NCBI GenBank assembly: GCA_000004985.1
Contig: GG738846.1
DNA length: 64,000 bases
Source of the DNA: Naegleria gruberi
Taxonomy: Eukaryota
Direction: 5' to 3' (one strand)
Position 1 is the stretch's first letter, and each line of letters starts with the position of its first letter. The translations under genes and the position numbers were made by a program. Positions 15,339 through 37,192 of this stretch are shown piece by piece. A model generated the notes under the pieces. It saw only the letters and a list, made by a program, of their open reading frames with translations. It was not told where the DNA came from and did not search any database.

Positions 15339-18300
15339 ATGAGTGATCATCTGTCTAGTCATCATGCGGCTGGATCGCAAACATCACCATCATCATCAAT
15401 ATTTGAATCATTTTATAGAAAATTCGAATCATTACGGAGGTCTAATGGTATGTAGTGTGATCATTAGGAATATTTTAAACAATGCTAATCCGAACATGTT
15501 GTTATTATTGTTGTTAATATCAAATAGATATAATCAACTTAACAAAAGTCTTAACAGAACTAAGAGACATTCTTGAAAGTGCCTCTCTATCAGAATGCTT
15601 TGAATTTTCTTCTATATTATTACGTCCACTTGTGGAATTTCTCAATGAAGGTACAACACCAAAATTTAAGAAGGATGACAAGGAACATCTTCTCAGACAA
15701 GTAATAATAGAAATTATACAAAAACTTCCACATACAGAGGTTAGTATTGAACTTTAAACTATCAACTAATGTGATTAATAGTTATTTGATGAAAGAGCTG
15801 GGAAAAAAGATGATTTAGTACTTTTAGTCAATTCTCTTATTAATGTCATCAAGACAGATAATGAAATCAATGGAGTGGTGGCTATTAGATTAATAATCGA
15901 AATTCAAAAATGTTTCAAATCAAACATTACAGACTTTGTTCAACCTCTTATTGAAATATTCCTACATTTTTTCGGAAATTTTGAAAAGATTGTTGAGAAA
16001 TATTTAGGAAGAAAACCAAAGAAAAATGCATCAGACCCAACAGTGGAAGGAGAATCATACCCTTTAACAGAATTGGATTTAATACCTTCCATGGATAGTT
16101 GTAAATTAATGTTAGAGTTACCAGTATTTATTATATTCTTCTTCCGTACATTAACAATCAAAGATACAAATAATAATATTTTTATCAAATTGGTTGAAAA
16201 GATGTATGATATTTTAAGATATGAAGTATCAGTTTCTGATTCAGTAATGTCATCTCCATTTGGAAAAGAAAGAGTTGAAGATTTCATGTTATTGAGGGTT
16301 AAAACTATTTCATTTTTGATTTATACCTCTTCTAAATATAAGAATAATGATAATTATACAACGGAAATACCTAGATTTGTTATTAAATGTCTTAGGGAAT
16401 GTCCAGACGAATGTATAGCTCCAAGAAAGGAAATGCTTTCACTAATGAGACATATTGTTGAAAGACAAAATGATGATTCTAATACTATTTGCAAATATTT
16501 TTTACCTTACATGAATGAAATGTTGGATGATACTATTTTAATTGGTAAAAGTAGATCTGCTCAAGAAACAGTAAGATCATCTGCTTATTCAACAGTTCTA
16601 GAAATATTGAAAAATCAATTGAAAAATATTGAATTTTCTCCTTCTAATATTGCTTCATGCATTTTATTTTGTACTAAGGTATTATTTGATTCATCTTTAG
16701 GAATTACAATTCATGGTTTAGCAACAGGATTGCTAGTAGCATTAACTCAAAATGTTTTTGATCAAATAAGAAAGATATCTGGAGTTTCAGATCCATCTGG
16801 TGATGTCTGTGCTGCCTTGTCTGGTATTTCAGAAGAGTCACTTTCACAAATCACCAAATTTAAGGATCATTTGTTGAGTATTATTCAAACATTTGTTCAA
16901 AAGATTAAGTTCATTTCTAATTTTATCAAAAAGATAATACAATATAAGAATATTCAAAAATCTTCAACATTGAACGAAAAGGAACAAACTGATGATATGA
17001 CAATGATTTTACCATTTAGTCCATACAAATCATGTGAAAATTTTAATGATGATATTTCTTATTGCTCCATGATGTTTAAACAAATAATTTTTGGTTTAAA
17101 GTCAACAGTACTTCTATATAATATGATACCAAGAAATGAGAAACAAAAATTCCCAGAATTATCAGTATTATCTAAACTTTTTAGATATGGATTGGATTGT
17201 TTCGATATTTTCAATTTATATTCAGAAGATACAGAATATGGTCAAAAGCAACGAGTATTAGATGAAAAGGAAATATTTAATAACTATTCATCTTTATATA
17301 CATCACTACCTTCGGCTTTATTTACAGAAATATTCAAAACTCAATTTGATTATCTATACAAAAAATTATTAGAAGGAAGAACAATGACATTTATCCATAT
17401 TCCATCAAATATTCTCTCATCTTCTCAACATATTGCTTCAATTCTCTCAGAGATACTCTTAAAATTTTTACTGAAAAGAATGGATAGAATACCAAAAGAT
17501 CGTAAAGAGGCTTATTATATTCACAACCTATACAAATTAGTATTTGGTTCAGTGGTAACATTCCCTAAGAATGAATCTATTTTAAAAAATCAAATGACCT
17601 CGATTGTTACATCATGTTTCAGTTATGCATCTAAATATAAGGATTGTTTAGATTATTATCTAATTTTAAGATCTTTATTCAGTTCAATCCTTACAGCTAA
17701 ATTTGATTTACTTTGCAAGGAATTCAGTCAATTACTTCCAACAGTTTTGGAAAAATTGTCTGATTTGGTAAATAATGCTCATGACAAGGAAACAAGGAAT
17801 ATATTTGTAGAGCTTTGTCTAACAGTTCCTTCCAAGTTACACGTTTTATGCCCTTATCTTTATTTATTAATCAAACCAATACTGTATGCTTTAGAGCCTG
17901 GTTCAAGTGAGAAGGCTGTTAGTGCAGCTTTAAGAAATCTGGATTTGTGGGTTACTAGTTTACGTAATGAATCATTAGAAGCCATTCTTAAACCTGTTAT
18001 ACCAGATTTACTTAAAGCACTATTCTCTCATTTGAAACCTCCTCCATACCCTCATGGATCTGCAGTAATGAAATTATTAGCTAAGTTGGGTGGTAGTCAC
18101 AGACAATATATGAGTGAATTAACTTCAGTTAGTGTCAAGTCACCAAATGCTTTATTCCTAAATATTAATTTTAATTCTAATCAAACGGAATCATTACCAA
18201 TGGATGAATTGGTTGATACTTCAATTGAAATTTGTTTCGATAAGGATCAAGATGTACAAACAAAAAAGAGTGCATTTGATTTTTTGAAAACATCATTACT

Positions 18301-21300
18301 TACTATGATGTCATGTACAGAGCAAAGTCTAGCTATACCAAATGATTTCAAATTTAGTTTTAAACATATTAACCCTAAAAAGTATTTCCACATTTCTGCA
18401 TCATCACCAAAAAGTTGTGATCCCTTCCAAAATATTTTAGATGTTTTGGAGCCAAAAGGATCAATGCTTTATGAAAGTGAAATTGCCATATTTACCAAAA
18501 TTTTGAAAAATATCTTCTTATTTATGAACTATGCTGTAAAGGAAAATCTGGTTGAATGTATAGAATTTACCAAATCCTTGATCAAACACTTTGCAATTTT
18601 ATCAATATTTGTGAATATTAATGTTGAACAAGCTTCAAAGTTTAGAATTAATCCTGATTGGTTCTATGAAGTTTTAATGAGTGTTTTTGAAGAGGATTGT
18701 ACAGAAACATCTCCATCTGTTAATGTAGGAGATTTTATCTTGTACATATTTACAGATTATGTTTATGAATTGTGTGATAATGATGCTGATATGGTAATTC
18801 AATTTGGTATTTGGGAAAGACTTCAATCAAGATTCACCAAATACCTATATCAACCTGAATGGTATAAGAAATGTGTTGGTGCAAAAGGTATAATCTTCTT
18901 AAGTGAAAATATTACACCAGCTTGGTTGGTTCATTATGAAGCTGATATTGTTCGTGCTCTATTCTTTTCACTGAAGAATCAACCTCCACATATGCTTTCT
19001 CATACCAATCAAATAACAATCATGGCAGCAGAGAGTATTATCAAAGCATGTTATAATACAGCTATCTTTGATATTACACATCTTTGCAATGGTCAAATCA
19101 ACGAAAAGATTGTAAAGGTTGATAATGCACCAGATTCTCTTACAGAAGGAGAAGTTGTAGTTCATGTTGAAAAAGTTGGAAGAGAATCTATATTCAGAAA
19201 GCGTTTGATTCTTCATTTGCTTTACACTGAATTGACTAGTACTCAATCTCATATTCGTAGATTGGCTCAATCACTCCTAAGATTATGTTCAGAATTAATG
19301 AACATTCCAGTTCTAGTAATACTTGAAAGGTTTAGACAAGAATTGCCTATTAAAGATGAAAAGCAAGCTAAGGATTTGTCTCAAATTACAGTTATGCTTG
19401 AACTTTTGGTCTTCCAATTGGCAACAAGGGATTCTAATCTTACAGGTTCCACTATTTCTGTAGCGTTTAATAAGGCTTTGACATTACTAAGAAATGATGA
19501 TTATGGGAAGGAGACAAAGGATCAAAAGAAAATTTTCAATGCAAAAATTGTTGCCTTGAAACTAATTAGAGAAGCTGTCGTAAGCAAAGAATTAAGATAT
19601 AATGAAAAAGATCAACTCAAGACAATGATTGAAACATTTTGTAAATTCCTTAACGCTCAGAATAAGGAAGTTGTCACTATTGCTAAAACAGCATTAATAT
19701 CATTCATATCTCAATTTAAAACTCCAAAGGATTCTTTACAACATTCCTTGAGACAAATATCTACAAACTTTCAAAAGCATGCTCACTTTACATTATTATT
19801 CCTTCAAGGAGCCTCATTTTTCCTCAAGTTTAACTCTAACATGCAAGGACTCAAATTTGGTCCTAACTTGCTTGATAACCTTAAGAAATGGCTAGATAAA
19901 TCATCAATCAAGCATATTCAAAATGTTAAAGAAAAACCTCTAGTTGCTGCAGAGATGATATCTTTATTTTCTATTACTGATTCAGCTGAGTTTTTGCCTC
20001 AAATAGTTCCTATGGTTCTTCAATTGGAAGCAGTATGGTCAGACGAAATTAAGAGTTCAAATCCATTTATTGCTCCTCTTGCCAAGTATTTGAACATATA
20101 TTATGAAGATGCTATCAAGTACTTCTTTGATCCAACTAGTGGGTGTTTTGTACTGTCTTCTAAGAGAAACTATCAATTCTTTATGGATATTTTGAAATGC
20201 AGAAAATCTATTGAACTTACAGCTCATTTATTGTCCCAATCTAATATTATTTCCAATTTATTGTCAAACATTACCAAATTAGATTTTTATTCAGATAATT
20301 TTGCTTCAGATCCAAATAATGTTCTGACACTAGTTGGTAGCATTACAAAATTATCTCCAGGTTGGTTTACTAAAAAGAAACCAGTATTCGATGAGATTTT
20401 ACGATTATGGCTTATGAATATCAAGTTTGCCAATAGTTTACACAATAGTAATCAGTCGAACCTAGAAATATCTCCATTGTTAGATGTTCAAATAATTAGG
20501 TTTACAAGAAAGCTTATCAAATTTATTATTAATTATTGTGATTGTAATTCAAATGAGGTTATATCACTCTTTGAAATTGTCAAGGTATTTGGATGTGGGC
20601 TTGTAATGGATTTGACTTTTGTTAAAGATTATTTCAGAACAAAAGTTGGTTTGGAGTATTCCACTGAAAGAAAGGAAGAGATATTACAAAACTTTTGTGC
20701 ATTGTTTAAACGTGATGAAATTTCTTTCCATTTGAAGTCTGATGCACTTAAACATATTGTTATACCAATAGTTAATGGTGCTGCTAAATCTGGTACTGTT
20801 TTTAATGTAAAAATTATGGGAATGTTATTTGAGGAAATTTTGCAAACATTACCACAATCATTAGCCAAGTTAACAGATAAGGAAAAATATTCTTTGAAAG
20901 TTGATTTACTACAACTAGCTACCTTGTTTGTAAAATACTTCCCAAAGTCCCATGTAGAGGCTTGTTGGAAGTCAATTGTAAAATTCTCCTATGAAAATTG
21001 CATTGTGGATGATATTACTACAAATCAATGTGCTTTTGTTTTGATTTCACACCTGATGAACAAGATAGGATTGCCAGCAAAAGTAGTCCAACAGGTATAT
21101 ATTGCATTCTTAAAGGATTGTAAGAAAGATAGCAAATCTCTTGTTTTACCTGCTTTGGATATGATTATTCAACCGGTTAAGGATGCACAATTACCATCTA
21201 ATGATTCTAAATTCCCAACCTGGATTAGAGTTACAAAGAAAACCCTATTGGAAGATTCTCCTTCAGCTATTCAACTCTTAAATATTTGGACAATATTTAT

Positions 21301-24300
21301 TAGACATGCAGATTCATTTTATGAATCAAGAGAGTTTTTCATGTCCAAGATGATAAACTCCCTCTCTAAAATTGGATATTCTTCAATGAATTTGGAGAAT
21401 AAGAAATTATATATACAATTGGTTGATTTAATAATATCTTGGGAAGAGAGGGCAGCTGGTGTTTATCACCCTGAGGATGATAACGACAAGAAGAGAAAAG
21501 TAGAGCAATTGGAACAACAAGACACAAATGGATCAAAGAAGAGAAAAGTAGATGAAGCTAGTTCAGTTCAATCCAATAACGGTCCTGTTGATGTGGACAC
21601 TTTTAGACTTAAGCCTCAATCTAGAAGCATTGTACTTAATTACCTTCTTCGTATGTGTGTATTTGTGAGCTCTTTCCAACCAAGAACAGAAAAACCACAA
21701 ATACTTTACAAAGAATGTATTAGTATCCTTAAAAGAGCTCTTAATTTGTGGAAGGAGGAAACTATTTCATTTAGTCAAATTGAAAAACAATTTCCTAACT
21801 CAGAGGAAGGTTCTTCCACTTTGAATCCAACATCCCTATGTTGTATTCTAGAACTGATGACTTTATTCGTAGAGTTGAATAGAGGAATTATTCAACTAAA
21901 CGCTCAATTTGCTAAAAAGCTCATTCCATTCTTGGCAAACTCAAATATTGATGTTAACAAGAATGCATGTAAATTCTTCAAGACTTTATTACAACATTTT
22001 GATCCTCTAGTTTCAAAAGATACTGACGTTCAGGAGTTTTATTCAGTTATTTGGTCATCAATCAAAGAAACTATTGGTAAATATGCTGGAAAAGAGAATA
22101 CCAATCAAGTAGATAATTTATCACACATTTACACAGTTGTTGTTGGTTCATTTGGCCATTTATTGCTCTTACATATTCTTTGTGACCATTACCAAAATGA
22201 AGAAACAAAACAACAATTTTTTAAACAAGTTTATGGACTTTTAAACAAAATATTGAAGCAAGTTGGACAAGTAGAATGGAAAGATCTTCTTGTTGGTTTT
22301 GTTGAACTTTGTCTATCTTTCCTTGTTGATGGTCATGATCCTGTTGGAAAACACTTCCTCTCTGCTATTATCTTCCTTGTTGAAAAACCTGACATTTTGA
22401 ACATATTCAGTCCTAATCTACTCCATTTAATAATTGATATTGTTTTCCATTTGGTAAAACCAAATCCATCCAATACTATTGTTAGAAGTTATACTCTTCC
22501 ACTTGGAGATGATTTGAAGATGACGAAGTTAGGAAAACGTGCCTACAAAGTACCAGACCTTCAAAAGGTTGGACTTCTCATCAAATTAGTTACACTTTTT
22601 GAGCAAGCTCCTGATGAACTTAATGATTTGAAACGTATTTATTTTACTTTGTTAATGGAAGTTTATCAACAAATGGATGATACCAACTCACCAATATCGA
22701 AGAGAATAGAGTTTTGCTTCATGTCTGGACTCAAGATTGAATCAAAGGATCTCAAAGATATCAAGACTAAATACCTATCTATTTTAAATAGAAAAGTCGA
22801 AAAAACAGCTTTTAAGAGATTGCAGTTTGTGATTGAGAGTTCAAGATGGGAGCCTTTGAGTGATAGATTCTGGATAAAATATGCTCTAGAACTTTTATTA
22901 GAATCAATTAATGGAGAAGAAAAATTGAATTGTGATAAGAATACAGCCAAAATTTCACCAATATCAATTGACTTTGGTAAGAGGGATGGAACAATTTTAA
23001 GAGGATATGAAAGAATATCTTATGCGTTAACGCAACACGAGACGTTTGTTAATACTATTCCAAATTTGAAGTCTATTGATATGATAAACCCACTCAAGGT
23101 ATTAATAAGAGCATCTACAAACATGTCGTTTAAGGCATGGGGAGCCTTTTTCGCAATTGCTTGGAATCAATTAAACATGGAAGAGAAGAGCATTATACAA
23201 GGACAATTACAAAAACTTCTCTCCGTAGAGTATCATTCCAAGCAATATGTCAAATATCCTAATGTTATTCAGGCATTATTACTTGGTGTTAATAATGTGG
23301 TACTTTGTGGAAAATCAGAAGCACCATTCCTATCAATTCATCCAGAAACCCTCAAATTTATTGGTAAATCTTTTAACGCTTGGTCTTTAACTATACCACT
23401 ACTTGAAGAAGAATTGAGAGGAATGCTGAACGTTGGCATTTTTGATGAGAAGACAGAAAAAGTATGCAATTCACTTGCAGAACTTTATAGAGTTTTGAAA
23501 GAGGATGATATTCTTGCTGGAATTTCTAGATCTTGTGACATTACTGATCAAACAAAATTAGTACTTTCCTTAGAACAAAGGAATAATTGGAATGAAGCAC
23601 AAGAGGCACTCAAAGAATTGACTAATGCTTATCACCGTGGCCAAATTAAAAAGAAAGTCACACATACTGAATTGCAATTATGGGAGGAACACTGGTTAAG
23701 TTGTTCCAAGAAACTTCAACAATGGGACGAACTTACTAAATATTCCCAAGCCTCTTCCAATGCCACATCTCTTCTTAGTTTAGAGTGTATGTGGAAGAAT
23801 GGAAATTGGCAACAGATGAAAGAACTTTTCCAAAAGCATGCATCAATGGAAAATCAACTTTTAAAATTCTTCCAAATCAGTTGTTTGATAATGCAAGATA
23901 AGGAAGTTGAAGCTGGTGAAACGTACATTGTTGCACAACAATTAGCTCTTCAACGTTGGTGTGCACTACCATCGTTCATGTGTGGTAATCACACTTTTAT
24001 GTTACATATTTTCCAACAATTGTATGAACTCAATGAGTCTGCTACACTCTTAACTGATACCAAGAAACCAATTTCTACCAATGAGTTGAAAGGTTTTTTG
24101 ACTACTTGGCGTGATAGACTTCCAAACAAATGGGAAGATATAGGTATTTGGAATGATATTTTCACTTGGAGATGTCATATTTTAAAGAAGGCAATCGAAA
24201 GATTTGATCAAAAGGAAGAATTTGCACACCATAGAGCCTTATTATTGAATGAAACCATTTGGTCGTTACACAAATTCTCTAAAATCTCTAGAAAACAAAA

Positions 24301-27295
24301 CTTTATTGAGCCTGCATTAAGAATGCTTTCAGAGACAGGTAAATTACTACCAACTCTAACAAGCGAAACAAGTGAAGTGTTTGTTAGAATAATTGAAATA
24401 ATTAAGAGCTTGATTAAGGATAGAAGATATAATGATGTTTTGGATTATATTGAATCTGATACAATTGCAACAACAAAACTCAAGACAACTCAAAAAATGG
24501 AAATTTTGAGGTTGAGAGGGGAAGTATATTCAATTTGTGGTCGTTATGATGAAAGTTACCAAACATATGCTCAATCTGTTTCCTACTTCCCTCAAGAACC
24601 AAAATATACCTCTTCAATTACAACAACACCATCATGGGGTAAAAGTTTCTTCAAGTGGGCACTAGTTTTAGACAAGTTATTTGTTGAAAAATGGAATTCA
24701 CCAAATAGACATCAAAGAACCAAACAAAATTCTACAAAACATCCAACTCTCTCAATGACTGCTTTGGAATTTGCTGAAAATTGTATTGCTGCCTATTTGT
24801 TGGCAATTAAATATTCTGGAGGTGCCACTAATCACCAAAGTATTCAGGCCTCAGGTGCTACAGTTAGACAGTATATTGGACGTGTATTGTGGTTATTATC
24901 ATTTGATGAAGCTCTACCAACAGAAAAATCAAAAGCAACTCAAGAAGCTGTTTATCCACTTCAAAAAGTTGCTGAAAAGACTATTGGTGACATTCCTGCA
25001 TGGATGTGGATTCCTTGGCATCAACAATTATTCTCCATGCTACATCGTCGTGACTGTGAAGCCAACATTGCCAAACAATTGTTGAAAGCCATTCTCCTCA
25101 ACTTCCCTCAGTCTTCATTCCATACATTTAGAAGCTTTGTTCATGATTTGAGAGAACTGTTATCTTCTATTACTAAGAAGGTATCCACTAAATCTGATAC
25201 CGGGGATGCTACAGCACCTGCTACTCTAAGAAGTAATAACTCTAATATTCATGTTTCTATCAAGACTAGTGCTGAATCGTCTCAAAATCATAATCAATTC
25301 TATCACGATTTCTTCAAAAAAGTGAGAAGTCGTCTTGATGAAATTATGCAAGAAGGTAATAAGCAATTATTTAATGATTTGGAATCAATGTACAAAGAGT
25401 TGACAAAATACAAGTCTGAACCTGAAGAAGAATTAGCCAAATCATTTGAATTAATGTTAGAAATAGCCTTCGGATTTAATATTTATTCAAATCAAGATGC
25501 CATGATTCTTGATGATGAGACCCATTTCATTCCTCCTATATTGATAGAGTATTCAAAGAGAATTATTGAATGTTACTTTGGTGATATTATTCAACCTGGA
25601 ACTGTTCCACAACAACCCCAACCACAACAAGCAAAGACTTCCTTCTTATCAGAATATCAAAGTGAAATTGTAGCTGATATTCTACCAAGAAAAGAAAGAC
25701 TTGAATATGCCAAGACTTTGAAATATGTAGCTAAAACTATAACTAATCTTGGTCCAAGAACAATAATAGAGCTTGTAAATAACTTGAAGAAATGGATTGG
25801 TGTTATTCAAAAGAAGAAAATCAATTTGATTCCAACTATTATTGGTATTGAAACTCAAAAAGCTAAATTAATGGAACACAAATCTTATCCTGATATTGAA
25901 ATTCCAGGACAATATGAACTCACTAGTGATAGGGAACCATTCGCTGAAAGGCATGAAAGAATTCTTTGTCTTCTTCCGTCAATATCTATGAAGAATAAGA
26001 AGAATAGAGAAACTGGTAGAAGTATTTCTTTGAGAAGTGTTTCAGGAAAGATCTTTAAATTCTTTATTCAATCAACCTCTTCTGTTGATGATACTACTCT
26101 CAAGACAGAAGAAAAAATGGCCTCTCTCATTAGACATATTAACAGATTGTTAGATAAGGATAAAACTGCAAAGAGTCATAACAATGTTCACTTGGAATAT
26201 CCTATAATCATTACCGCCAATCAAAGAATTAGATTTATTCGTGAAGATTATGATTATATTTCCTTGGATGAAATATATCATGATTATTGTGAATCCATGG
26301 CTAAATCCATTGATACTCCAATACTTAAATATTGGCAAGAAATGAATAAGGCATGTTCTGAGCACCAAAATGAGCTTGAAACAAAATTGAATGTATTTAA
26401 CACCATTCTTGAATCTAGAGGAAATGATGATTTATCTCTAAAAATTCCTGATACAATAATGCTCAACTACTTTAGAGGTATTTGTCCAAGTTGGAGTGAA
26501 TTTTACAAGATTCGAAAGACATTTGGTGGCCAATTGGGTATTTATAATGTGTTGAATTATTTACTACATACCAAGGATAGGCAACCATATAAGATTCTCA
26601 TTGCAAAGAATAGTGGTAATCTTTTCCAATTCGATTTAAGACCTAATATTCAAAAATCTACTGGTTTAATTGTTAGGGATGACCCAACACCTTTTAGACT
26701 TACTAGAAATATGATTCAATTCCTCTCTCAATTTGGTGTTGAAGGCTACTTGTTGAATTCAATGTCTTCTGTTGCTTGTTCCCTTTCTGATAACAAGGAT
26801 GTTTTCGAATCTCTTATTCAATTATTTATTAGAGACGAACTCATCTCTTATCATAACTTTAATGTAGATTTACTCAATAATGAGAGTAGCACTCCAATGG
26901 GAGAAAACCGTTTCTGTTTCAATGATGACCTTGTTAAGGGTTGCGTTCAACAAAACCTAGATTCAATTATGGGATTAGTTGCTGAAATGGCTCCACCAAT
27001 TCCACAAAATTTGACTTGTAATCCACCACAAGTTCTTCCAGCAAAGAAGAAGTCCAAGAAGGAGTCCGTATCTTCAGACACTATTGATAATATTTCTGCT
27101 GCTTCTCCAAGTGTTACAACACCATCTACTCCATCTTCTTTCATATCAACTCCAACGATTTCAGCGAGCTCCCAACCTGTTTCTAATATTTTAGACTTGC
27201 CACCCCTCAATAGCAAGGTCTATGAACTCATTCAACAAGCTTCACAACCTGAAAGATTATGTTTGAAAGATCCAAGTTATTATGCATGGTTCTAA
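15339..27295 (+). CDS. TRRAP: Tra1/TRRAP (SAGA/NuA4 scaffold, PIKK family), three exons: join(15339..15447,15528..15739,15782..27295)
   Basis: The 3,806-aa main ORF covers the HEAT/FAT region, a catalytically dead PI3K-like region and a FATC tail (...DPSYYAWF). Two tiny 5' introns (80 nt GTATGT..aaatag; 42 nt GTTAGT..taatag) add two upstream exons. These encode MSDHLSSHH...ESLRRSN and DIINLTKVLTELRDILESASLSECFEFSSILLRPLVEFLNEGTTPKFKKDDKEHLLRQVIIEIIQKLPHTE, which are Tra1 N-terminal homology. The track's 15875 start is a GTG. Confidence 0.9.
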
Positions 27296-27505
27296 GTAAA
27301 TAAAATCAATAAATGATTATGTTGCATGATTCAAATAATTGACTCGGAAATTTTCAAAATATTGAAGTATCAACTAATAGTCAACTCATCCAGTCAATTA
27401 TGATCATCCTAACAAGTTTGAGCCGCATCATTCAAGTCGGACTTTTGTTTCAAGTATTAATGGTACAAATAAGAGTCCGAACACCAAAAACCCAATAAAA
27501 AAAAC

Positions 27506-29597
27506 ATGATGCACACCACTACTCCTTGCAAAAGCATGATACTGGATACAAGCGCCTTGTTTACTATCATGCATTATAAATCAGAGAAAGTACACATTCT
27601 CAAAACTCCACAAGAAATTGCAGAACAAGTTTCCGATAAAATAATTCAAACAATCAATTCCAATAATTTGAAAGGAAAACCAACAGTATTGTGTCTACCA
27701 ACTGGTAGTACTCCAATTCTTACCTACAAAGCCCTTGTAGAAAAGTATAAGAAGGGATTGGTATCATTTGAAAATGTTATAACTTTTAATTTGGATGAAT
27801 ATTATCCAATGGAATCAACCCACAAACAATCCTATCATTACTTTATGAATGAAAATTTATTTTCCCATATTAATATCAAGAAGGAAAATATCCATATTCC
27901 AGATGGTCAACTCCCAATCGAAAAAGTTGCTCAATTTTGTGAAGATTATGAAAATGAGATTCAGCAATTAGGAGGTTTTGATTTGGCTATTTTGGTATGT
28001 TTTTACAATTATCATTACTTCTCATTTTAATCAATTTTATATTAAATACCTTCTTAAATAGGGAATTGGAAGAACTGGTCACATTGGTTTCAATGAACCT
28101 GGTAGTCATTTAACAGATGGTACTAGAATGGTCCTATTAGATCAAAAAACCAGACTTGATGCAGCTTCCTCATTCAAAGGAATTCAAAATGTTCCAACCA
28201 GAGCAATCACACAAGGTATTAGTACTATTCTCAATTCAAAAGAAATTCTTCTCCTTGCAACTGGTGAATCCAAATCTGAAATTATCAAAAAGGCTATGGA
28301 AGACAAATTTGAAGATCCAACAGAATGTCCAGCAACATTTTTACGAGTTCATCCAAATACTCACTATTATTTGGATATTGCTGCTAGTAATTTATTGAAA
28401 ATTGTTAAAACTCCATGGTTGGTAGATCGTAATTTTAATGATTGGTCATTCGAATGGAAAAAGAAGGCTGTTGTTAATTTGGCAAAAGAAACTCGAAAGG
28501 GAATTTGTGAATTGAGTGCTGAAGATTTCTCAAAACATGGGCTCACCAGTTTATTATCTCATGAAAAGTATAACACTGACAAGTTGTGCTTCTCAATTTT
28601 CCAAGATTTAATGAAGAGAATTGCCTTTGCTACTGAAAAATCTGACATTGTTCCTGATAACATCAACGATCCAGTTCTCATCTTTTCTCCTCATCCAGAT
28701 GATGATGTCATTTCTATGGGTGCAATGATGCATTGTATTATTTCTAGAAGAAAGGAGCAATTACCACCAGAACAAAGGGATCAAACTGACATTAATGTCA
28801 AAGTTTGTTACATGACTAATGGATCAGTTGCTGTACATGAAAACAATGTAAAGAATCATTTAAGATTCAGCTCTCTAACAAGTGAAACACTTGGAAAGGA
28901 TTTTATTAACAATCAAGATATTTCTCAAATTTTGGAAAAGAAGGATAAGAATGACCCAGATAGTGAACTGGTACAAAAGTTGAAGGCAAATATCAGAAAA
29001 GCTGAAGCTATGGATGCAGTTGATGTGTTGTAAGTACTTCTTTAATCGATTCAATTCTTAATCTTTTTTAGAGGATTGCACGGAGAAAGAGATTGCATAT
29101 TCCTTGATCTTCCTTTTTATAGAACTGGAAAAGTACAAAAGAAGCCACTTGGACAGGAAGATGTAGATATGGTCAAAGACTTAATTACACAAAGAAAACC
29201 AAAACATATCTTTATTGCTGCAGATTTGTCCGATCCTAATGGAACACATCGTGTGGTTTATAGAGCTATCAAGATGGCTCTTGAACAATTGGCAGATCAA
29301 GTTAGTGACGTGTTGTGTTGGCTTTACAGAGGAGCTTGGCAAGAATGGGATATTGAGGAAGCAACCTATTTCATTCCATTTACAAAATATCAAATGGATT
29401 TGAAGATTGATGCCATTTACAAACATCAATCCCAAAAAGATAGAGCACTCTATCCAGGTGATGATGCTCGTGAATTTTGGCAAAGAGCAAAGGATAGAAA
29501 TACTGAAACAGCTGTCACTTTAGGTAATTTAGGGTTGCCAAAATTTTGTGGTGTGGAAGCCTATGTTACTGTTAAACCATCACAAATTCCAGAATAA
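27506..29597 (+). CDS. Fusion protein of glucosamine-6-phosphate deaminase/isomerase (NagB) and a C-terminal LmbE/PIG-L-family de-N-acetylase domain, three exons: join(27506..27994,28062..29029,29072..29597), about 660 aa
   Basis: The N-terminal domain reads LCLPTGSTP...TFNLDEYYP...SYHYFMNENLFSHINI...GGFDLAIL. After a 67-nt GTATGT..aaatag intron it continues GIGRTGHIGFNEPGSHL.... These are canonical GlcN6P deaminase motifs. The C-terminal half carries the PIG-L signature VLIFSPHPDDDVISMGAMMH. A 42-nt GTAAGT..tttag intron is placed by phase; it then continues into the second part of the LmbE domain. Confidence 0.85.
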
Positions 29598-29756
29598 AGC
29601 TCAAATAAACTGAACTCAAATATTCAGATCTTTTCAAAAATTTAAGAAAAAATATTATAAATTTATTCACATTAAGGTGAGAAAAGGAAGCCTTCACTAA
29701 GGTATTAAATCATTAAATAGCAGCTACCAAAACACCTGGTAAAACTATTTGGCTAA

Positions 29757-31340
29757 TTATTTCTTGTTAGCAACAACAGATACCCAAGAAACTGGTTGAT
29801 CAGTTGAAGTGGTTGGAGCTAGTACTGGAGTAGCGTTGGTTACATTAATGGATGGAGCTGATGATTCAGTTGTAGCAACATTGGTTTTTGATTGTTGTTT
29901 TGGCTCTTTGGTTTCCTTAGTTTCGGATTTTTGAGGCTTGCTATAATGAGGCTTTTGATGTGTAAGAGTATGAGCTGGAGCATTGCTTCCTCTTCTTTTC
30001 CTTGACTTGGCAAAGAAATGAGAAGTGGATGGGGTATCAGGTGTCTTGATGTCCTTAGCTGTTATAGCAGCTTCAGCGAATGAAGACTTTGGAATCAACA
30101 AGTTGGTTGGCTTAACTGATTGGACAGATGGTGTGGTTCCTTCCTTTTCAGTTTCGAGTGGGAGAGTTTGATTGGCAAGTTGACTCTTATCCATTTGAGG
30201 TTTGTGTAACTCTAAATCCTTTTTAGGTTCCTTCAAAATTGCTATACATTCAGTTCCGTTCAAAATTTCTGGTTTGGTATCGTGTTCACCCTTTTCTTGT
30301 TGTTCCATATAAACACTCATAACAGTTTGCTTACTATAACGCAAGAACTTTTGATTTCCGTATCCAGCTTGTTCAGTTTCATTCATCTTTGGAAGTGGAG
30401 GGAAACTCTTTGTGCTACTCAAGTTCAACATATCTTTACGTGGTCTAGTTTGTTTACTAACATTACTAGCTTGGCTGTTTCTACTACCACTGTTGCTTCT
30501 AGTTCTTCCTCCTCGTTGACTAGTTCCCCTATTGTTGTTGTTGTTGTTGTTATTATTGTTTCTATTGCCATTTTGAGAGGATTGAGGTGTAGTAGTGGCG
30601 GAAGTTGAAGGAGAAGTTTGTTGTTGTTTGTTGAAACTTCTTTCCTTTGGTTGTTGGCTTCCATTATTTTGATTTGTTCTATTGTTGTTATTGAATTTTC
30701 TATTTCCTCTATTGTTATTGTAAGAGTATTGATAACCATTTTGTGGAGTTTGTGGAGTTGGAGTAGTACCAACAGTCTTTAACAAGCTTTCAGTTTTAAT
30801 TCTTGCCTGTATTGGTTTTTCATCCCATTGTTGAGTCTTTAAGTGTTGAACAGCTTCAATGGTTTTTTCTTCTGTTTCAAATGAAGTGAACCATGTATTT
30901 CCAATGTCGCTATGGATATTAACAGGTTGGTTATCATGAGAGAAAAGTTTAAGGATTTCTTCTTTTGGAACATTTTGAGAAATGTCTCGGATAATGACTG
31001 TATTTCTCTTCAAGACAATGTTTGGTTTGAGTTTCTTGTTTGCTGCATCAAGAATAACCTGATTCGAGTTCTTTACAGCCTCACAAATCAAATCCAAGTC
31101 GTTAGTGAGGGTTTTAATCATTTTGAAATTAGCAATGACAGAAACTGGGACAAAGAGGTCATGACTCATTTGGGAAACCAAATAGTGGTCAGTAGAGAGG
31201 TTTTGACGAGAAAAGTAGTATTCAACTTGTTTACAAATGGCTTCTTTCAACTCATCTCTAGTTAATTGTTTCTTTTCAGTTGTTTGCTCAACATTTTCAG
31301 TAGCTGGTGTTGCTTGGGTGGATTCGCTTTGTTGACTCAT
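29757..31340 (-). CDS. La-related protein (La motif plus RRM-like domain; LARP4/LARP6-like)
   Basis: 527 aa. The La motif reads LKEAICKQVEYYFSRQNLSTDHYLVSQM...PVSVIANFKMIKTL. An RRM-like segment (NTVIIRDISQNVPKEEILKLF) follows, then an Asn/Gln/Ser-rich tail with a poly-N tract. Confidence 0.7.
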   Translation of the reverse strand: MSQQSESTQATPATENVEQTTEKKQLTRDELKEAICKQVEYYFSRQNLSTDHYLVSQMSHDLFVPVSVIANFKMIKTLTNDLDLICEAVKNSNQVILDAANKKLKPNIVLKRNTVIIRDISQNVPKEEILKLFSHDNQPVNIHSDIGNTWFTSFETEEKTIEAVQHLKTQQWDEKPIQARIKTESLLKTVGTTPTPQTPQNGYQYSYNNNRGNRKFNNNNRTNQNNGSQQPKERSFNKQQQTSPSTSATTTPQSSQNGNRNNNNNNNNNNRGTSQRGGRTRSNSGSRNSQASNVSKQTRPRKDMLNLSSTKSFPPLPKMNETEQAGYGNQKFLRYSKQTVMSVYMEQQEKGEHDTKPEILNGTECIAILKEPKKDLELHKPQMDKSQLANQTLPLETEKEGTTPSVQSVKPTNLLIPKSSFAEAAITAKDIKTPDTPSTSHFFAKSRKRRGSNAPAHTLTHQKPHYSKPQKSETKETKEPKQQSKTNVATTESSAPSINVTNATPVLAPTTSTDQPVSWVSVVANKK

Positions 31341-31874
31341 GATGTTGCTCTGTGTGTTTAGAATTCCCTTTTAAAGTCGAGAATAATGATAATGATGTTG
31401 TTTTTAAAAAACTCAAAGAGTAATTTGCTCTCCGTAAAAGAATTTGTGCTTTTTAGAAGGAGAGAATGTTGTTTGCTTGCTGTGTCTAACAAGTTAGCCT
31501 GCTGATGAGAGATGCAACAAGAGGGAAAAGTATATTTTTTTTGCGTTCTTCTCTCGGAAAACAGAGATGCAAGCTTTTGTTGTTGGCAAGCCTTTGGTTG
31601 AGTCGGCAGAGGTTCAGAGTGAAAAGGCTTTACAAAATAATGTTGTTTATCACTGTGGGGAAGATATCTTTGCATTTCCATAGTAGAGATAATCACCTTG
31701 TTCTCTTCTAATTGCAACTAAACTACTAAATCTAATTGTTTTACTTTGAGAGAAGAGAATCAATATTCTTCATGAAGTAGTGTTGTCGTGAATCCATTTT
31801 AGAGGCTACTGGTTATTGTACATGTTATCTCAAAGTGGATAATGAAATTAGGTAATGCAAACTAGAATCATTTA

Positions 31875-33026
31875 TTAATTTCCTTCTTCTCCAATAATTT
31901 CACCTAACGATGGTTCATCGCTGTACAATGCTGATGATGTTGTAGGATTAAAAAAACCTATGTTAATATCCAAAGTTTGAGTCTTTTTAGATAATTCATT
32001 CGTTTCCTCGTTTGAAACAATTGAATAGGTTTGTGAATTAATTGGAGGTGTAGAAATTTCCTTAATTTCTACTACATTTGTAACGGAAACTATTTCTTCC
32101 TTATTATTTCTTATTGACTGGTTGATTTGAGTAATTTCTTGTTGTTTCATATCATGAGAACTATTGAGGTGATTAACAAATACGTATTCAGAATCTATAG
32201 GATCACTTAATTTCTCGAGAGCTATCTCACCACCATTTAACATATTGTGATGTTCAGATTGAGTCTCCATAAATTGTGAAGGTGGAGGAATGATATGCAA
32301 ATAACCAGTTCCTAATTCTATCCCTAAATGTCCACCATCACTCATGTTCACAACTACATGTCTAAATGAATCTGTTTTCCAATTATAAACAAATAAAGAC
32401 AAATAAATAGATGATGCTGAAATGCCTTGATAATGGCTCAATAATTCTGTTAGTTCATTTGGCTCAGAGAATAGTCTATTATCATAACCAACAATATAAT
32501 CAGTTCCGTCAGAAGATATAGAGGCTCTTTCTGCTGGTGAATCAGGTTTAACTCCAATAACATGCCAAACACAATTCAAAGCATTTTTTACCGATTCATA
32601 CCTAATAGAACATCCTAAATGCATTGCACTTTTTGATTGCTTTAATTTTTCCAAATCATCACTTGTACTATTATTGTGTTCCTCGTTTTGTTGCTGATCA
32701 TGAGGTTCTATCCAATCCGATCTAGGAATTACTGTTACTAGTCTTTGTTTCATTGTCTTTAGGCTATATACATTCATTTTGAGGGGTTGATTCAAACTTC
32801 TGGAAATCTTTTGGGGTTGAAATGATCATTACCTTCGGAATGAATCACTTACATAAGTTAAAAAAAATTGTCTATTCTCCTGTGTAAGATCAATATCGTC
32901 CATAGAGAGAATGAAATCAAAATATGGGCAAAGTCCAGCTTTTTCTGCAGGGGAATGGTGAGTTACCGAAATAACTTGGTAACCAAAAATATTTTCAGTT
33001 GGAATAGAAGAGTCGACATTGCCCAT
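31875..33026 (-). CDS. GRASP (Golgi reassembly-stacking protein) homolog, two exons: join(31875..32807,32853..33026) on the minus strand
   Basis: Exon 1 encodes MGNVDSSIPTENIFGYQVISVTHHSPAEKAGLCPYFDFILSMDD... (N-myristoylation MG; PDZ-like GRASP domain; compare GRASP65 [35 protein letters not shown]). Exon 2 encodes ...QPLKMNVYSLKTMKQRLVTVIPRSDW...LGCSIRY...HVIGVKPDSPAE...GTGYLHIIPPP. I placed a 45-nt intron (TAT|GTAAGT..ccaaaag). An alternative 33-nt intron (CGAAG|GTAATG..ttccag) would add six residues. Confidence 0.7.
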
Positions 33027-36286: not shown

Positions 36287-37192
36287 ATGGCAGGAAAATC
36301 AAAACGTAAAACACCCTCTAAAAAAACACCTGTTGAAACTTTATCACAACAAAACAAAAAGGAGGGAGAACAATTGAAAAGAAAAAATCCTATTCTAATC
36401 ACAAAACCAATTGTATTAGGAAATTTTGCAGTCGGAATTAAAAAGAAGGATGGTGATCAAACTTGGTGTAAATGGGTTTGTTATGTGAGAGGACTGACTT
36501 TGGATGATGACTTGAGTTATATTTCACAAATTACTTTTCATCTTCATGAATCCTTCAGCCCACCACAGGAAACAATCACCAAAGCACCTTTTGAAGTCGA
36601 AAAGGAGGGATGGGGACAATTTCCTCTACGAATTGAGATACATTTCCACGAATCAAGCGGATTACAGCCACTATCTCTTGACTATGACCTTCAATTACCT
36701 GCGGAAAGTCAAAAAAAGAAGAAAAAACCTTGTGTTTATGAAAAATATGAGGAATTACTTTTCTATGATCCTACAGAGAAATTTGAACAGTTGTTGAGAG
36801 AGAATACAGAGCAAGTTCAAAACTCTGTAAAGAAGATTAAATTATCAACAGAGATGGAATTAAAAAATGCAGATCTATCCGAATCAGAACAAGAAGTCTC
36901 CCCTTTAACATCCAAAAAACCATCGGAGGATATTTCATCTGCACCTTCGAATAGTACTACAACTAATAGGTTATCAATTGCTTCAATGATTGAACAATAT
37001 GCTACAATTATTAAGGAGGAAAATTCTCTTAAAGCACTAAATGAATTGAGTGAAAAACTGAAAGAGAAAATCAAAGAAAAAGAAGACCCATCATTTATCA
37101 AAACCGAAAGTTCTAGAACAAAAACAAAGAAATCTAAAAAGCAAACAAAGAAGGAAAGTAGTGACGAGGATGATAGTGATTATGTTGATTAA
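36287..37192 (+). CDS. YAF9: YEATS-domain protein (Yaf9/GAS41 family)
   Basis: ITKPIVLGNFAVGIKKKDGDQTWCKWVCYVRGL...ISQITFHLHESFSPPQETITKAPFEVEKEGWGQFPLRIEIHF parallels the GAS41 segments IVKPIVYGNVARYFGKK...HTHQWTVYVKP...[38 protein letters not shown]. The C-terminus is a coiled-coil with a Ser/Asp tail. Confidence 0.8.
   Translation: MAGKSKRKTPSKKTPVETLSQQNKKEGEQLKRKNPILITKPIVLGNFAVGIKKKDGDQTWCKWVCYVRGLTLDDDLSYISQITFHLHESFSPPQETITKAPFEVEKEGWGQFPLRIEIHFHESSGLQPLSLDYDLQLPAESQKKKKKPCVYEKYEELLFYDPTEKFEQLLRENTEQVQNSVKKIKLSTEMELKNADLSESEQEVSPLTSKKPSEDISSAPSNSTTTNRLSIASMIEQYATIIKEENSLKALNELSEKLKEKIKEKEDPSFIKTESSRTKTKKSKKQTKKESSDEDDSDYVD

What the first reader, a model, noticed from the sequence alone, without database searches (positions are those of the whole stretch)
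27506..29597. Bacteroidetes-type long NagB-LmbE fusion (GlcN6P deaminase plus PIG-L de-N-acetylase) in a eukaryote, carrying spliceosomal introns
Seen in sequence: one ~660-aa reading frame, restored by two short GT-AG introns (67 and 42 nt), joins a canonical glucosamine-6-phosphate deaminase domain to a C-terminal LmbE/PIG-L domain. The NagB motifs are PTGSTP, FNLDEY, SYHYFM and GIGRTGHIGFNEPGS; the LmbE hallmark is SPHPDDDVISMGA. To my knowledge this two-domain long NagB is characteristic of Bacteroidetes/Porphyromonas-like bacteria, where it is about 660 aa. Standard eukaryotic GNPDA is single-domain, about 270-290 aa. Inference: a horizontally acquired gene that has gained introns and sits among housekeeping genes. 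It could collapse GlcNAc-6-P deacetylation and GlcN-6-P deamination into one polypeptide for amino-sugar or chitin catabolism.
Basis: partly seen in the sequence, partly recalled or inferred. Interest (0 to 1): 0.75.

Follow-up and report, generated by a model that had tools for sequence, protein, structure and literature searches.

The report
Bacterial-type two-domain NagB gene in Naegleria-like amoeba
This is a real, intron-containing amoeba gene for a bacterial-type two-domain amino-sugar enzyme (glucosamine-6-phosphate deaminase fused to a PIG-L/LmbE deacetylase), but this "long NagB" and its transfer from bacteria into protists have been described since 2006, so it is a new member of a known kind.

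Summary
Removing two canonical GT-AG introns (27995-28061, 67 nt; 29030-29071, 42 nt) from 27506-29597 (+) gives a 660-aa protein. It matches NCBIfam NF002557 (NagB + PIG-L) end to end at 712 bits against a cut-off of 384. The orthologues in Willaertia magna (78% identity) and Naegleria fowleri (79%) read straight through one or both intron sites, which confirms the splicing.

The gene sits between eukaryotic Tra1 and La-domain genes, and its codon usage matches theirs. It is present across Heterolobosea. The nearest prokaryotic relatives are Rhodothermales/Bacteroidota, at 47-48% identity. Ancient transfer from bacteria with later intron gain is therefore well supported. The donor is not resolved, and the family is much wider than Bacteroidetes.

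It is not new as a kind. Long NagB in Entamoeba, Mastigamoeba, Dictyostelium, ciliates and Trichomonas was published as lateral transfer in 2006, and a "nagB-PIGL" fusion in ciliates in 2026.

A combined deacetylase-deaminase function is plausible. Supporting it are ROK kinase-NagB-PIG-L fusions, NagB-NagA fusions, a chitin-locus context in Hymenobacter, and archaeal chitobiose deacetylase as the closest solved relative of the C-terminal domain. None of this is biochemical. The Naegleria/Willaertia clade also carries NxxH in place of the family's HxxH motif. Interest is low to moderate.

The parts
27506..29597 (+). Complete long-NagB (NagB + PIG-L/LmbE) gene with three exons and two introns, encoding a 660-aa product
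   Evidence: NF002557 matches full length at 712 bits. Identity is 78% to Willaertia magna P0001 and 79% to N. fowleri P0002.
27506..27994 (+). Exon 1 (aa 1-163): N-terminal leader and the first part of the NagB domain, including PTGSTP and the catalytic Asp97 codon (27794-27796)
   Evidence: The alignment to E. coli NagB maps D72 to D97.
27995..28061 (+). Intron 1: 67 nt, GTATGT...ATAG, phase 0, 18% GC
   Evidence: N. fowleri has a 195-nt GTAGGT...TTAG intron at the same codon boundary (LALL|GIGRTGH). Willaertia is uninterrupted here.
28062..29029 (+). Exon 2 (aa 164-485 plus 2 nt of codon 486). It holds the rest of the NagB domain (His170 at 28080-28082, Glu175 at 28095-28097), a helical linker (about aa 286-363), and the first half of the PIG-L domain with the SPHPDDD zinc/base motif (His374-Asp378, 28692-28706).
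29030..29071 (+). Intron 2: 42 nt, GTAAGT...TTAG, phase 2, 24% GC. Unspliced, it gives an in-frame TAA.
   Evidence: N. fowleri and Willaertia code uninterrupted across this site (DAVDVLGL[Q/K]GERDC).
29072..29597 (+). Exon 3 (last nt of codon 486 to aa 660, plus the stop): second half of the PIG-L domain. It includes DPNGTH (Asn542 at 29238-29240, His545 at 29247-29249), which corresponds to the family's HxxH motif.
   Evidence: The profile alignment to archaeal Dac places hGTH on HPDH.
15875..27295 (+). Upstream neighbour: an intronless 3806-aa Tra1/TRRAP-like ORF. This is eukaryotic context, not part of the enzyme.
   Evidence: Tra1 also lies about 3 kb from nagB in N. fowleri locus L002. 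RSCU r=0.93 with nagB.
29757..31340 (-). Downstream convergent neighbour: a La-domain (LARP-like) protein. This is eukaryotic context.

Best explanation
The window comes from a heterolobosean amoeba of the Naegleria/Willaertia clade. The gene at 27506-29597 is the lineage's orthologue of the 'long NagB' family. That family has an N-terminal glucosamine-6-phosphate deaminase/isomerase domain (GlcN-6-P <-> Fru-6-P + NH3), joined by a helical linker to a C-terminal zinc-type PIG-L/LmbE de-N-acetylase domain.

The gene entered eukaryotes already fused, from a bacterium related to Rhodothermales/Bacteroidota or a neighbouring lineage. That happened before the sampled heteroloboseans diverged. Since then it has taken on host codon usage and gained lineage-specific spliceosomal introns.

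Most likely mechanism (inferred, not shown): GlcNAc from digested bacterial peptidoglycan or chitin is phosphorylated. The PIG-L domain removes the acetyl group from GlcNAc-6-P, or from GlcNAc/chitobiose before phosphorylation. The NagB domain converts the resulting GlcN-6-P to fructose-6-P and ammonia, which feeds glycolysis.

Shown here: gene structure, domain identity, conservation of the NagB catalytic residues and PIG-L zinc ligands, orthology, phylogenetic neighbourhood and codon amelioration. Inferred: direction of transfer, the substrate of the PIG-L domain, and the catabolic direction.
For: Gene and domains.

Orthologues: Willaertia, N. fowleri, Acrasis, Heterolobosea sp. BB2 and Pharyngomonas. 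There is partial Tra1 synteny with N. fowleri.

Introns: confirmed by uninterrupted homologous coding in relatives and by one shared intron position.

Bacterial affinity: the best prokaryotic hits are Rhodothermus and Rhodothermales at 47-48% identity over 95% of the length. In the NJ tree, WIN+Willaertia has 100% bootstrap and core Heterolobosea 88-90%. A larger clade containing the Rhodothermales-type cluster, Omnitrophota and the protists has 75%. Both domains have the same nearest neighbours.

Amelioration: GC3 is 0.25 against 0.24 for Tra1 and 0.85 for the Rhodothermus orthologue. RSCU r is 0.93 with Tra1 and -0.62 with Rhodothermus.

NagB domain: catalytic D97, H170, E175 and K234 are conserved. 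The AlphaFold2 model of the Willaertia orthologue has pLDDT 88, and its N-domain matches solved NagBs at TM about 0.9.

C-terminal domain: a profile hits archaeal diacetylchitobiose deacetylase PH0499 at E=1.6e-13, then BshB and MshB. Foldseek's best non-NagB hit is 4xm1, the P. furiosus Dac.

Function by association: ROK kinase-NagB-PIG-L triple fusions exist (P0256, P0426), as do NagB-Amidohydro_1 (NagA-type) fusions (P0351, P0311). The Hymenobacter locus reads LacI | long NagB-MFS-GH18-SusC-SusD. The Rhodothermus locus includes a BcrAD_BadFG (GlcNAc-kinase family) gene and SusC/D.

Constraint: both domains are equally conserved between the window and Willaertia, with Kimura distances of 0.23 and 0.24.
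Against: There is no transcript or biochemical evidence. I found no paper in the searchable library that characterises the PIG-L domain of any long NagB.

In Naegleria and Willaertia the first His of the HxxH motif is Asn (DPNGTH). This residue aligns with the first His of HPDH in solved PIG-L enzymes, where, from my memory of the MshB literature, it is catalytically important. The same H-to-N change does recur in about 5% of sampled family members, including bacteria, so it may be tolerated.

In Entamoeba, knock-down of glucosamine-6-P isomerase blocks chitin cyst-wall formation (PMC3581238). That shows a NagB enzyme running in the biosynthetic direction in an amoeba.

I recall (not verified here) that Bacteroides species carry NagA as well as long NagB. 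If so, the PIG-L domain need not replace NagA.

The tree is NJ with Kimura distances only. It lacks the previously published Amoebozoa, ciliate and Trichomonas sequences.
Confidence: 0.6

Rival explanations
1. The gene and its origin are as described, but in the amoeba the enzyme runs mainly in the biosynthetic direction (Fru-6-P + NH3 -> GlcN-6-P). It would supply UDP-GlcNAc for cyst-wall polysaccharide during encystment, as reported for Giardia and Entamoeba. The PIG-L domain would have a salvage or regulatory role.
For: The NagB reaction is reversible (established biochemistry). Knock-down of Entamoeba Gln6Pi abolishes the chitin wall (PMC3581238). Andersson et al. note that NagB is required for the Giardia cyst wall (PMC1484493). 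Naegleria forms cysts.
Against: Bacterial contexts point to catabolism: GH18, SusC/D, an MFS transporter, LacI repressors and kinase fusions. A deacetylase domain makes little sense in a purely biosynthetic enzyme. I found no literature linking Naegleria cyst walls to this enzyme. I could not check whether Naegleria has GFAT.
Confidence: 0.2
2. In the Naegleria/Willaertia clade the PIG-L domain is no longer a deacetylase. It would serve as a scaffold for oligomerisation or as a ligand-sensing domain (for example for GlcNAc-6-P) that regulates the deaminase.
For: The clade has Asn in place of the first His of HxxH. The E. coli-type allosteric-site residues K160, T161 and Y254 are not conserved in the N-domain, so any regulation would have to come from elsewhere.
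Against: The zinc ligands (H374, D377, H545) and the putative base D376 are intact. The C-domain is as conserved as the N-domain between the window and Willaertia. H-to-N recurs in unrelated bacterial members that otherwise keep all motifs, which suggests a tolerated catalytic variant.
Confidence: 0.15
3. Long NagB was already present in an early eukaryote, or in the common ancestor of Discoba and Metamonada, and was inherited vertically with many losses. On this view it did not arrive by a specific bacterium-to-Heterolobosea transfer.
For: In the NJ tree the heteroloboseans group loosely with Anaeramoeba and an unnamed relative (74%), and then with Pharyngomonas (52%). Stygiella (a jakobid) and Barthelona lie in the same larger clade. 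None is nested inside the Rhodothermales-type cluster, which is itself 100% monophyletic. The family also exists in Helarchaeota.
Against: The distribution across eukaryotes is patchy. Andersson et al. 2006 found eukaryotic long NagBs polyphyletic, with Trichomonas near Bacteroidetes/Chlorobi and the Amoebozoa plus ciliates elsewhere. Here Barthelona groups with Omnitrophota, and the Helarchaeota sequence falls in a distant part of the tree. Support for one eukaryotic clade is weak (15% or less once Stygiella is added).
Confidence: 0.1
4. The region is bacterial contamination, an assembly chimera or a decaying pseudogene.
For: None beyond the bacterial affinity of the protein.
Against: Canonical introns are present. 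Host-like GC3 and codon usage apply. The gene is flanked within 210 bp and 160 bp by eukaryotic genes. An independent metagenome contig has the same arrangement at 99.7% identity. Intact orthologues exist in five heterolobosean genera. There are no frameshifts or internal stops after splicing.
Confidence: 0.01

Closest known systems
Long NagB of protists and bacteria ('box B' of Andersson et al. 2006, BMC Evol Biol 6:27; NCBIfam NF002557/PRK02122 'glucosamine-6-phosphate deaminase-like protein'; 'nagB-PIGL' of PMC13198582)
   Same: The two-domain architecture and length (about 610-680 aa) are the same, and the profile matches end to end. The evolutionary story is the same too: a bacterial-type gene patchily present in microbial eukaryotes and interpreted as lateral transfer.
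   Different: Heterolobosea were not in the published data sets I could read. This clade carries NxxH instead of HxxH in the PIG-L domain, and the introns are lineage-specific. I could not obtain the Entamoeba, Dictyostelium, ciliate or Trichomonas sequences, so the relationship to them is untested.
Rhodothermales/Bacteroidota long NagB (for example Rhodothermus marinus P0015, Salinibacter ruber P0165, Hymenobacter P0470)
   Same: Identity is 47-48% over 95% of the length and all catalytic motifs are shared. These genes sit in carbohydrate or chitin utilisation loci.
   Different: They are prokaryotic: no introns, GC3 of 0.85, and regulation by adjacent LacI-type repressors. The amoeba gene lies outside this cluster in the tree.
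Canonical eukaryotic GNPDA1/2 and bacterial short NagB (PDB 1ne7, 1dea, 3hn6, 2bkv)
   Same: The N-terminal domain has the same fold (TM about 0.9 to the target) and the same catalytic Asp, His and Glu.
   Different: These are single-domain proteins of about 240-290 aa. The E. coli/human-type allosteric residues are not conserved here. The N-domain is no closer to human GNPDA (E=1.8e-45) than to Borrelia (2e-52) or Bacillus (8e-49) NagB.
Archaeal diacetylchitobiose deacetylase Dac (PH0499/Tk-Dac; PDB 3we7, 4xm1, 8bgn) and other PIG-L/LmbE zinc deacetylases (BshB, MshB)
   Same: This is the closest solved relative of the C-terminal domain (profile E=1.6e-13; Foldseek). The HPDD and HxxH zinc/catalytic motifs are shared. 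The substrates are GlcNAc-containing.
   Different: Dac is a stand-alone protein of about 270 aa. The long-NagB C-domain has a helical insertion of about 90 residues and a C-terminal extension. Its substrate is unknown, and here the first His of HxxH is Asn.
NagA (amidohydrolase-family GlcNAc-6-P deacetylase)
   Same: It catalyses the step the PIG-L domain is proposed to perform. NagA-type domains occupy the equivalent slot in other NagB fusions (P0351, P0311).
   Different: The fold and family are unrelated. There is no Amidohydro_1 domain in this protein.

Membership tests
Long NagB (NF002557 / PRK02122, NagB + PIG-L) | Full-length match to the family profile above the curated cut-off | tested here: met
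   712.1 bits against a cut-off of 384. Protein aa 22-654 align to profile positions 22-651 of 653.
Long NagB (NF002557 / PRK02122, NagB + PIG-L) | N-terminal NagB domain with the catalytic Asp, His and Glu | tested here: met
   PF01182 E=9e-25 and TIGR00502 at 248.6 bits against 236.9.
Long NagB (NF002557 / PRK02122, NagB + PIG-L) | C-terminal PIG-L domain with SPHPDDD and DPHG[TA]H motifs | tested here: inconclusive
   SPHPDDD is present. It occurs in 427 of the 436 sampled sequences in which this motif pattern was found. The second motif is DPNGTH: the zinc-ligand His545 is kept and the first His is Asn542. The Asn variant is seen in 20 of about 410 sampled members.
Long NagB (NF002557 / PRK02122, NagB + PIG-L) | Enzymatic activities of the two domains | not testable with these tools
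   This needs recombinant protein assays. I found no published assay of the PIG-L domain of any family member.
Canonical eukaryotic GNPDA (single-domain, allosteric hexamer) | Single NagB domain of about 270-290 aa | tested here: not met
   The protein is 660 aa with an additional PIG-L domain.
Canonical eukaryotic GNPDA (single-domain, allosteric hexamer) | GlcNAc-6-P allosteric-site residues (E. coli K160, T161, Y254) | tested here: not met
   The aligned residues are V187, L188 and N287.
PIG-L/LmbE zinc de-N-acetylases (PF02585) | Pfam match above the gathering score, PIG-L fold, and His/Asp/His zinc ligands | tested here: met
   PF02585 scores 44.8 bits against 28.2. The profile hits Dac at E=1.6e-13. 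Foldseek finds 4xm1 and 6iiy. H374, D377 and H545 are present.
PIG-L/LmbE zinc de-N-acetylases (PF02585) | First His of the HxxH motif (catalytic acid or oxyanion stabiliser in MshB, from memory) | tested here: not met
   Asn542 aligns to the first His of HPDH in PH0499.
NagA (amidohydrolase GlcNAc-6-P deacetylase) | Amidohydro_1 TIM-barrel domain | tested here: not met
   There is no such Pfam or NCBIfam hit. Any NagA-like role would be by analogy, not by family membership.
Horizontally acquired gene in a eukaryote | Integrated in the host genome, with host-like composition and introns | tested here: met
Horizontally acquired gene in a eukaryote | Phylogeny nesting the eukaryotic clade within prokaryotic diversity with strong support and an identified donor | tested here: inconclusive
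   NJ bootstrap is 75% for the larger clade of the Rhodothermales-type cluster, Omnitrophota and the protists. The heteroloboseans are not inside the Rhodothermales cluster. No ML program was available, and the published eukaryotic sequences were not retrieved.

The most novel reading that the evidence does not exclude
The PIG-L domain of long NagB is a so far uncharacterised, NagA-independent deacetylase for GlcNAc-6-P (or GlcNAc/chitobiose). That would make the protein a self-contained two-step 'GlcNAc to fructose-6-P' enzyme. In heterolobosean amoebae this bacterial import would be the main route by which amino sugars from eaten bacteria enter glycolysis. The clade's NxxH variant would represent an alternative catalytic solution within the PIG-L family.
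Probability: 0.35. Interest if true: 0.45.

Novelty: new member of a known kind. Interest (0 to 1): 0.22.

Why it matters
The finding adds Heterolobosea to the protist lineages known to carry the bacterial long NagB, and by the same searches a jakobid (Stygiella), Anaeramoeba and Barthelona. It is also a clean example of what happens to a gene after inter-domain transfer. Codon usage is fully ameliorated, and the introns, all of them necessarily gained after the transfer, sit at different positions in the window species, N. fowleri and Willaertia, with only one position shared.

The open question is at the level of the family, not this locus. Nobody appears to have shown what the PIG-L domain does. 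Because N. fowleri is a human pathogen and animals have no two-domain homologue, the enzyme could be of minor interest as a parasite-specific target.

None of this would surprise a specialist in protist LGT.

Tried and rejected
I used the 78%-identical Willaertia orthologue P0001 there and for structure prediction.

(2) I spent the second and third homologue searches on Anaeramoeba P0086 and on P0307, hoping to pull in Entamoeba, Dictyostelium, ciliate or Trichomonas long NagBs. Both returned almost only prokaryotes: Rhodothermales for P0086, Margulisiibacteriota and Elusimicrobia for P0307. The relationship to the previously published eukaryotic sequences is therefore untested.

(3) Twenty cluster look-ups named only a few representatives.

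(4) The afdb50 fold library was unavailable.

(5) A single-sequence PDB search with the C-domain gave nothing significant. A 14-sequence profile was needed.

(6) Literature searches for LmbE or PIG-L together with NagB, and for Naegleria together with GlcNAc-6-P, found no functional study. The search on Naegleria, chitin synthase and cyst wall gave nothing relevant.

(7) I could not test whether Naegleria has NagA/AMDHD2, a GlcNAc kinase, GFAT or chitin synthase, because no whole-genome search of the host was possible.

(8) I looked for amino-sugar genes near the gene in the window. The ten large ORFs scanned with Pfam include none.

(9) tRNA and Rfam scans of the window were empty.

(10) Contamination and pseudogene readings were rejected (see the rival explanations).
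Full report
OBSERVATION

The region 27506-29597 (+) contains three ORFs in different frames: 27506-28030, 28128-29033 and 29076-29597. Two short AT-rich segments separate them, and both have canonical splice signals.
- Intron 1 is 27995-28061: 67 nt, GTATGT...ATAG, phase 0.
- Intron 2 is 29030-29071: 42 nt, GTAAGT...TTAG, phase 2, with an in-frame TAA if retained.

Splicing gives a 1983-nt CDS and a 660-aa protein. Pfam finds Glucosamine_iso (aa 34-258, E=9e-25) and PIG-L (aa 369-555, E=2e-11). NCBIfam NF002557/PRK02122, 'glucosamine-6-phosphate deaminase-like protein', matches end to end at 712 bits against a cut-off of 384.

ARE THE INTRONS REAL?

There is no transcript evidence, but the comparative evidence is strong.
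- In a multiple alignment, both junctions restore gap-free colinearity with bacterial and eukaryotic homologues...FDLAIL|GIGRTGHIGFNEPGS... and ...DAVDVL|GLHGERDC....
- tblastn of the spliced protein against the Willaertia magna locus L001 shows uninterrupted coding across both sites. Willaertia has its own 49-nt GTAAGT...TTAG intron elsewhere, between AADL and SDPNG.
- The N. fowleri locus L002 has a 195-nt GTAGGT...TTAG intron at exactly the window's intron-1 position. It has no intron at the intron-2 position. It has extra in-frame 54-nt interruptions after GFNEPG and after DPNG.

So intron positions differ between close relatives and only one is shared. That is the pattern expected for introns gained after a bacterial gene arrived.

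HOST AND CONTEXT

The best hits are Willaertia magna (78% identity, 98% coverage) and N. fowleri (79%; the annotated model is truncated to 475 aa). Next come Acrasis kona (51%), Heterolobosea sp. BB2, Pharyngomonas kirbyi, and environmental sequences that cluster with Acrasis.

The window gene lies 210 bp downstream of an intronless 3806-aa Tra1/TRRAP-like ORF. It converges on a La-domain gene 160 bp away. In N. fowleri, Tra1 is also within about 3 kb of nagB, but on the other strand with a peptidase S9 gene in between.

The La protein of the window has an exact match only on an ENA metagenome contig. That contig is 99.7% identical to window 26757-32349, and a prokaryotic gene caller split nagB there into the same three ORFs.

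Composition is host-like. GC3 is 0.25 for nagB, against 0.24 for Tra1 and 0.29 for La. RSCU correlates at r=0.93 with Tra1 and at -0.62 with the Rhodothermus orthologue, whose GC3 is 0.85. Contamination, chimera and pseudogene readings are excluded.

WHERE DOES IT COME FROM?

Beyond the heteroloboseans, the top 120 hits are almost all Rhodothermales/Bacteroidota (Rhodothermus, Salinibacter, Rhodocaloribacter, Rubrivirga) at 44-48% identity over 95% of the length. Interspersed among them are Stygiella incarcerata (a jakobid) and Anaeramoeba flamelloides.

An exhaustive HMMER search with the Willaertia orthologue found 1102 cluster representatives at E<=1e-30. The named ones include Barthelona, Omnitrophota and Helarchaeota. 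A further search added Margulisiibacteriota, Elusimicrobia, Pirellulaceae, Phycisphaeraceae, Abditibacteriaceae, Hymenobacter and a YNP archaeon. The architecture is therefore far wider than Bacteroidetes.

I built an NJ tree with Kimura distances on 608 columns, 67 sequences and 100 bootstraps. Support values were:
- window + Willaertia: 100%
- core Heterolobosea: 88-90%
- core Heterolobosea plus BB2: about 70%
- plus Anaeramoeba and an unnamed relative: 74%
- the Rhodothermales-type cluster: 100%, excluding all eukaryotes
- a larger clade joining that cluster, Omnitrophota/Barthelona and the protists: 75%

Separate N-domain and C-domain analyses give the same nearest neighbours, so the fusion predates the transfer. 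The Helarchaeota sequence falls in a distant part of the tree.

The N-domain is no closer to human GNPDA than to Borrelia or Bacillus NagB.

Taken together, a bacterial origin is well supported. The transfer happened before the sampled heteroloboseans diverged. The donor is not identified. Whether Discoba and Metamonada share one acquisition cannot be decided with NJ and this sampling.

WHAT IS ALREADY KNOWN?

Andersson et al. 2006 (PMC1484493) described exactly this 'long version' of NagB, with a conserved C-terminal extension they estimated at roughly 500 aa (the domain boundaries here put it at about 375-400 aa). They found it in Entamoeba, Mastigamoeba, Dictyostelium, ciliates, Trichomonas and several bacteria, and interpreted it as lateral gene transfer. 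Trichomonas was possibly from the Bacteroidetes/Chlorobi group. A 2026 study lists 'nagB-PIGL' among LGTs to anaerobic ciliates and places it in amino-sugar and peptidoglycan degradation (PMC13198582).

None of the papers I found that mention both Naegleria and glucosamine-6-phosphate describes a Naegleria nagB. The orthologues are, however, deposited: Acrasis kona is annotated as glucosamine-6-phosphate deaminase, and the Willaertia and N. fowleri proteins as hypothetical proteins. This is a new member of a known kind.

HOW IT PROBABLY WORKS

N-terminal domain. It keeps the NagB catalytic residues. D97, H170, E175 and K234 align to E. coli D72, H143, E148 and K208. It lacks E. coli-type allosteric residues: K160, T161 and Y254 align to V, L and N.

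Structure. An AlphaFold2 model of the Willaertia orthologue (pLDDT 88, pTM 0.84) shows a NagB fold, with TM about 0.9 to 3hn6, 1dea and 2bkv. A helical linker joins it to a PIG-L-like alpha/beta domain. The best solved matches to that domain are P. furiosus diacetylchitobiose deacetylase (4xm1) and teicoplanin deacetylase (6iiy). A 14-sequence profile of the C-domain hits archaeal Dac PH0499 at E=1.6e-13, followed by BshB, BC1534 and MshB.

PIG-L motifs. The SPHPDDD motif is intact. The family's second motif, DPHG[TA]H, aligns to HPDH of Dac. In the window, N. fowleri and Willaertia it reads DPNGTH. The zinc-ligand His is kept, and the first His is replaced by Asn. That change occurs in 20 of about 410 sampled family members, including unrelated bacterial ones. 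The C-domain is also as conserved as the N-domain between the window and Willaertia. I therefore read it as a tolerated variant and not as inactivation.

Evidence for substrate and direction is indirect.
- Metagenomic proteins fuse a ROK sugar kinase to NagB-PIG-L (P0256, P0426). Other proteins fuse short NagB to a NagA-type amidohydrolase (P0351, P0311). The PIG-L domain thus sits where NagA sits in analogous fusions.
- In Hymenobacter the gene lies in LacI | long NagB-MFS-GH18-SusC-SusD, a chitin/GlcNAc-type utilisation locus.
- In Rhodothermus it is near LacI, CBM9, a GHL10 gene, a GlcNAc-kinase-family gene and SusC/D.

The best-supported mechanism is therefore catabolic. GlcNAc(-6-P) is deacetylated by the PIG-L domain, and GlcN-6-P is deaminated and isomerised to Fru-6-P by the NagB domain. 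In a bacterivorous amoeba this would most plausibly salvage peptidoglycan and chitin amino sugars. This is inference.

The main rival is use in the biosynthetic direction for the cyst wall, as in Entamoeba (PMC3581238) and Giardia. A second rival is a non-catalytic PIG-L domain.

VERDICT

Its core inference, a bacterial-type fused gene acquired horizontally and now carrying introns, is supported. Its sense of rarity is not: the family is broad in prokaryotes and has been documented in protists for two decades. The functional proposal is reasonable and somewhat strengthened here, but remains untested. Interest is low to moderate (0.22). The only truly open point, the activity of the PIG-L domain, concerns the whole family and not this locus.

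Noticed in passing
window 15875-27295 (+); L002 7728-14931 (-): The window has a 3806-aa Tra1/TRRAP-like ORF with no intron, ending 210 bp upstream of nagB. In N. fowleri, Tra1 lies on the opposite strand about 3 kb from nagB, with a peptidase S9 gene in between. This is a local inversion or insertion relative to the window.
   Followed up: partly
L007 (ENA ERZ929261, PRJEB11402 metagenome contig), matching window 26757-32349: An environmental metagenome contig is 99.68% identical to the window over 5.6 kb. The prokaryotic gene caller split nagB into three ORFs of 174, 301 and 173 aa. No annotated protein set in the collection holds this species' proteins, so the window species seems absent from annotated genomes.
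   Followed up: partly
L002 2650-5002 (N. fowleri VFQX01000059.1, FDP41_008059): The deposited N. fowleri model (P0002, 475 aa) is truncated or mis-spliced. tblastn recovers nearly the whole 660-aa protein, but with frame changes near aa 58-63, 150-155 and 527/528. There are also unannotated in-frame 54-nt introns after GFNEPG and after DPNG. Either assembly indels or missed introns could explain this.
   Followed up: partly
P0256 (1013 aa), P0426 (1044 aa; locus L010 7001-10135), P0351 (859 aa), P0311 (782 aa): Metagenomic triple fusions of ROK sugar kinase + NagB + PIG-L exist. So do fusions of short NagB with a NagA-type Amidohydro_1 domain, one of them with DUF218. They serve as Rosetta-stone evidence for a kinase-deacetylase-deaminase pathway.
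   Followed up: partly
P0246 cluster (P0380-P0382, Candidatus Helarchaeota); P0422 (archaeon YNP-LCB-003-016): Full-length long NagB occurs in Asgard (Helarchaeota) and other archaeal MAGs. Andersson et al. 2006 had found no archaeal nagB. In the NJ tree these sequences are far from the eukaryotic ones.
   Followed up: partly
L004 5062-7403 and L005 5286-7746: In both Rhodothermus and Salinibacter, long NagB is divergently adjacent to a gene pair of GMC oxidoreductase and Gluconate_2-dh3 subunit. In Salinibacter it is followed by GFO_IDH_MocA, AP_endonuc_2 and 3-keto-disaccharide hydrolase genes. This may link it to an oxidative (3-keto-sugar) glycoside pathway.
   Followed up: no
P0281 (3144 aa), P0282 (2622 aa), P0290 (6766 aa), P0359 (5036 aa), P0315, P0330, P0343: Several very large predicted proteins contain a long-NagB-like segment embedded far from their ends. 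They are probably run-on gene calls in eukaryotic or metagenomic contigs, but I did not check.
   Followed up: no
window 29757-31340 (-): The La-domain/LARP-like protein has a long low-complexity middle region with poly-Asn and Ser/Thr/Gln-rich runs (for example NNNNNNNNNN).
   Followed up: no
window 2252-4360, 11896-12969, 13060-14259, 31875-32795, 34749-36134, 36287-37192: The other window genes are ordinary eukaryotic housekeeping types. They are a NOP2/RsmB-F-like methyltransferase, D123, a ribosomal S18-domain protein, GRASP55/65, a cytochrome b5-fatty acid desaturase fusion and a YEATS protein. The ten large ORFs scanned include no further amino-sugar gene, and there are no tRNA or Rfam hits in the 64 kb.
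   Followed up: partly
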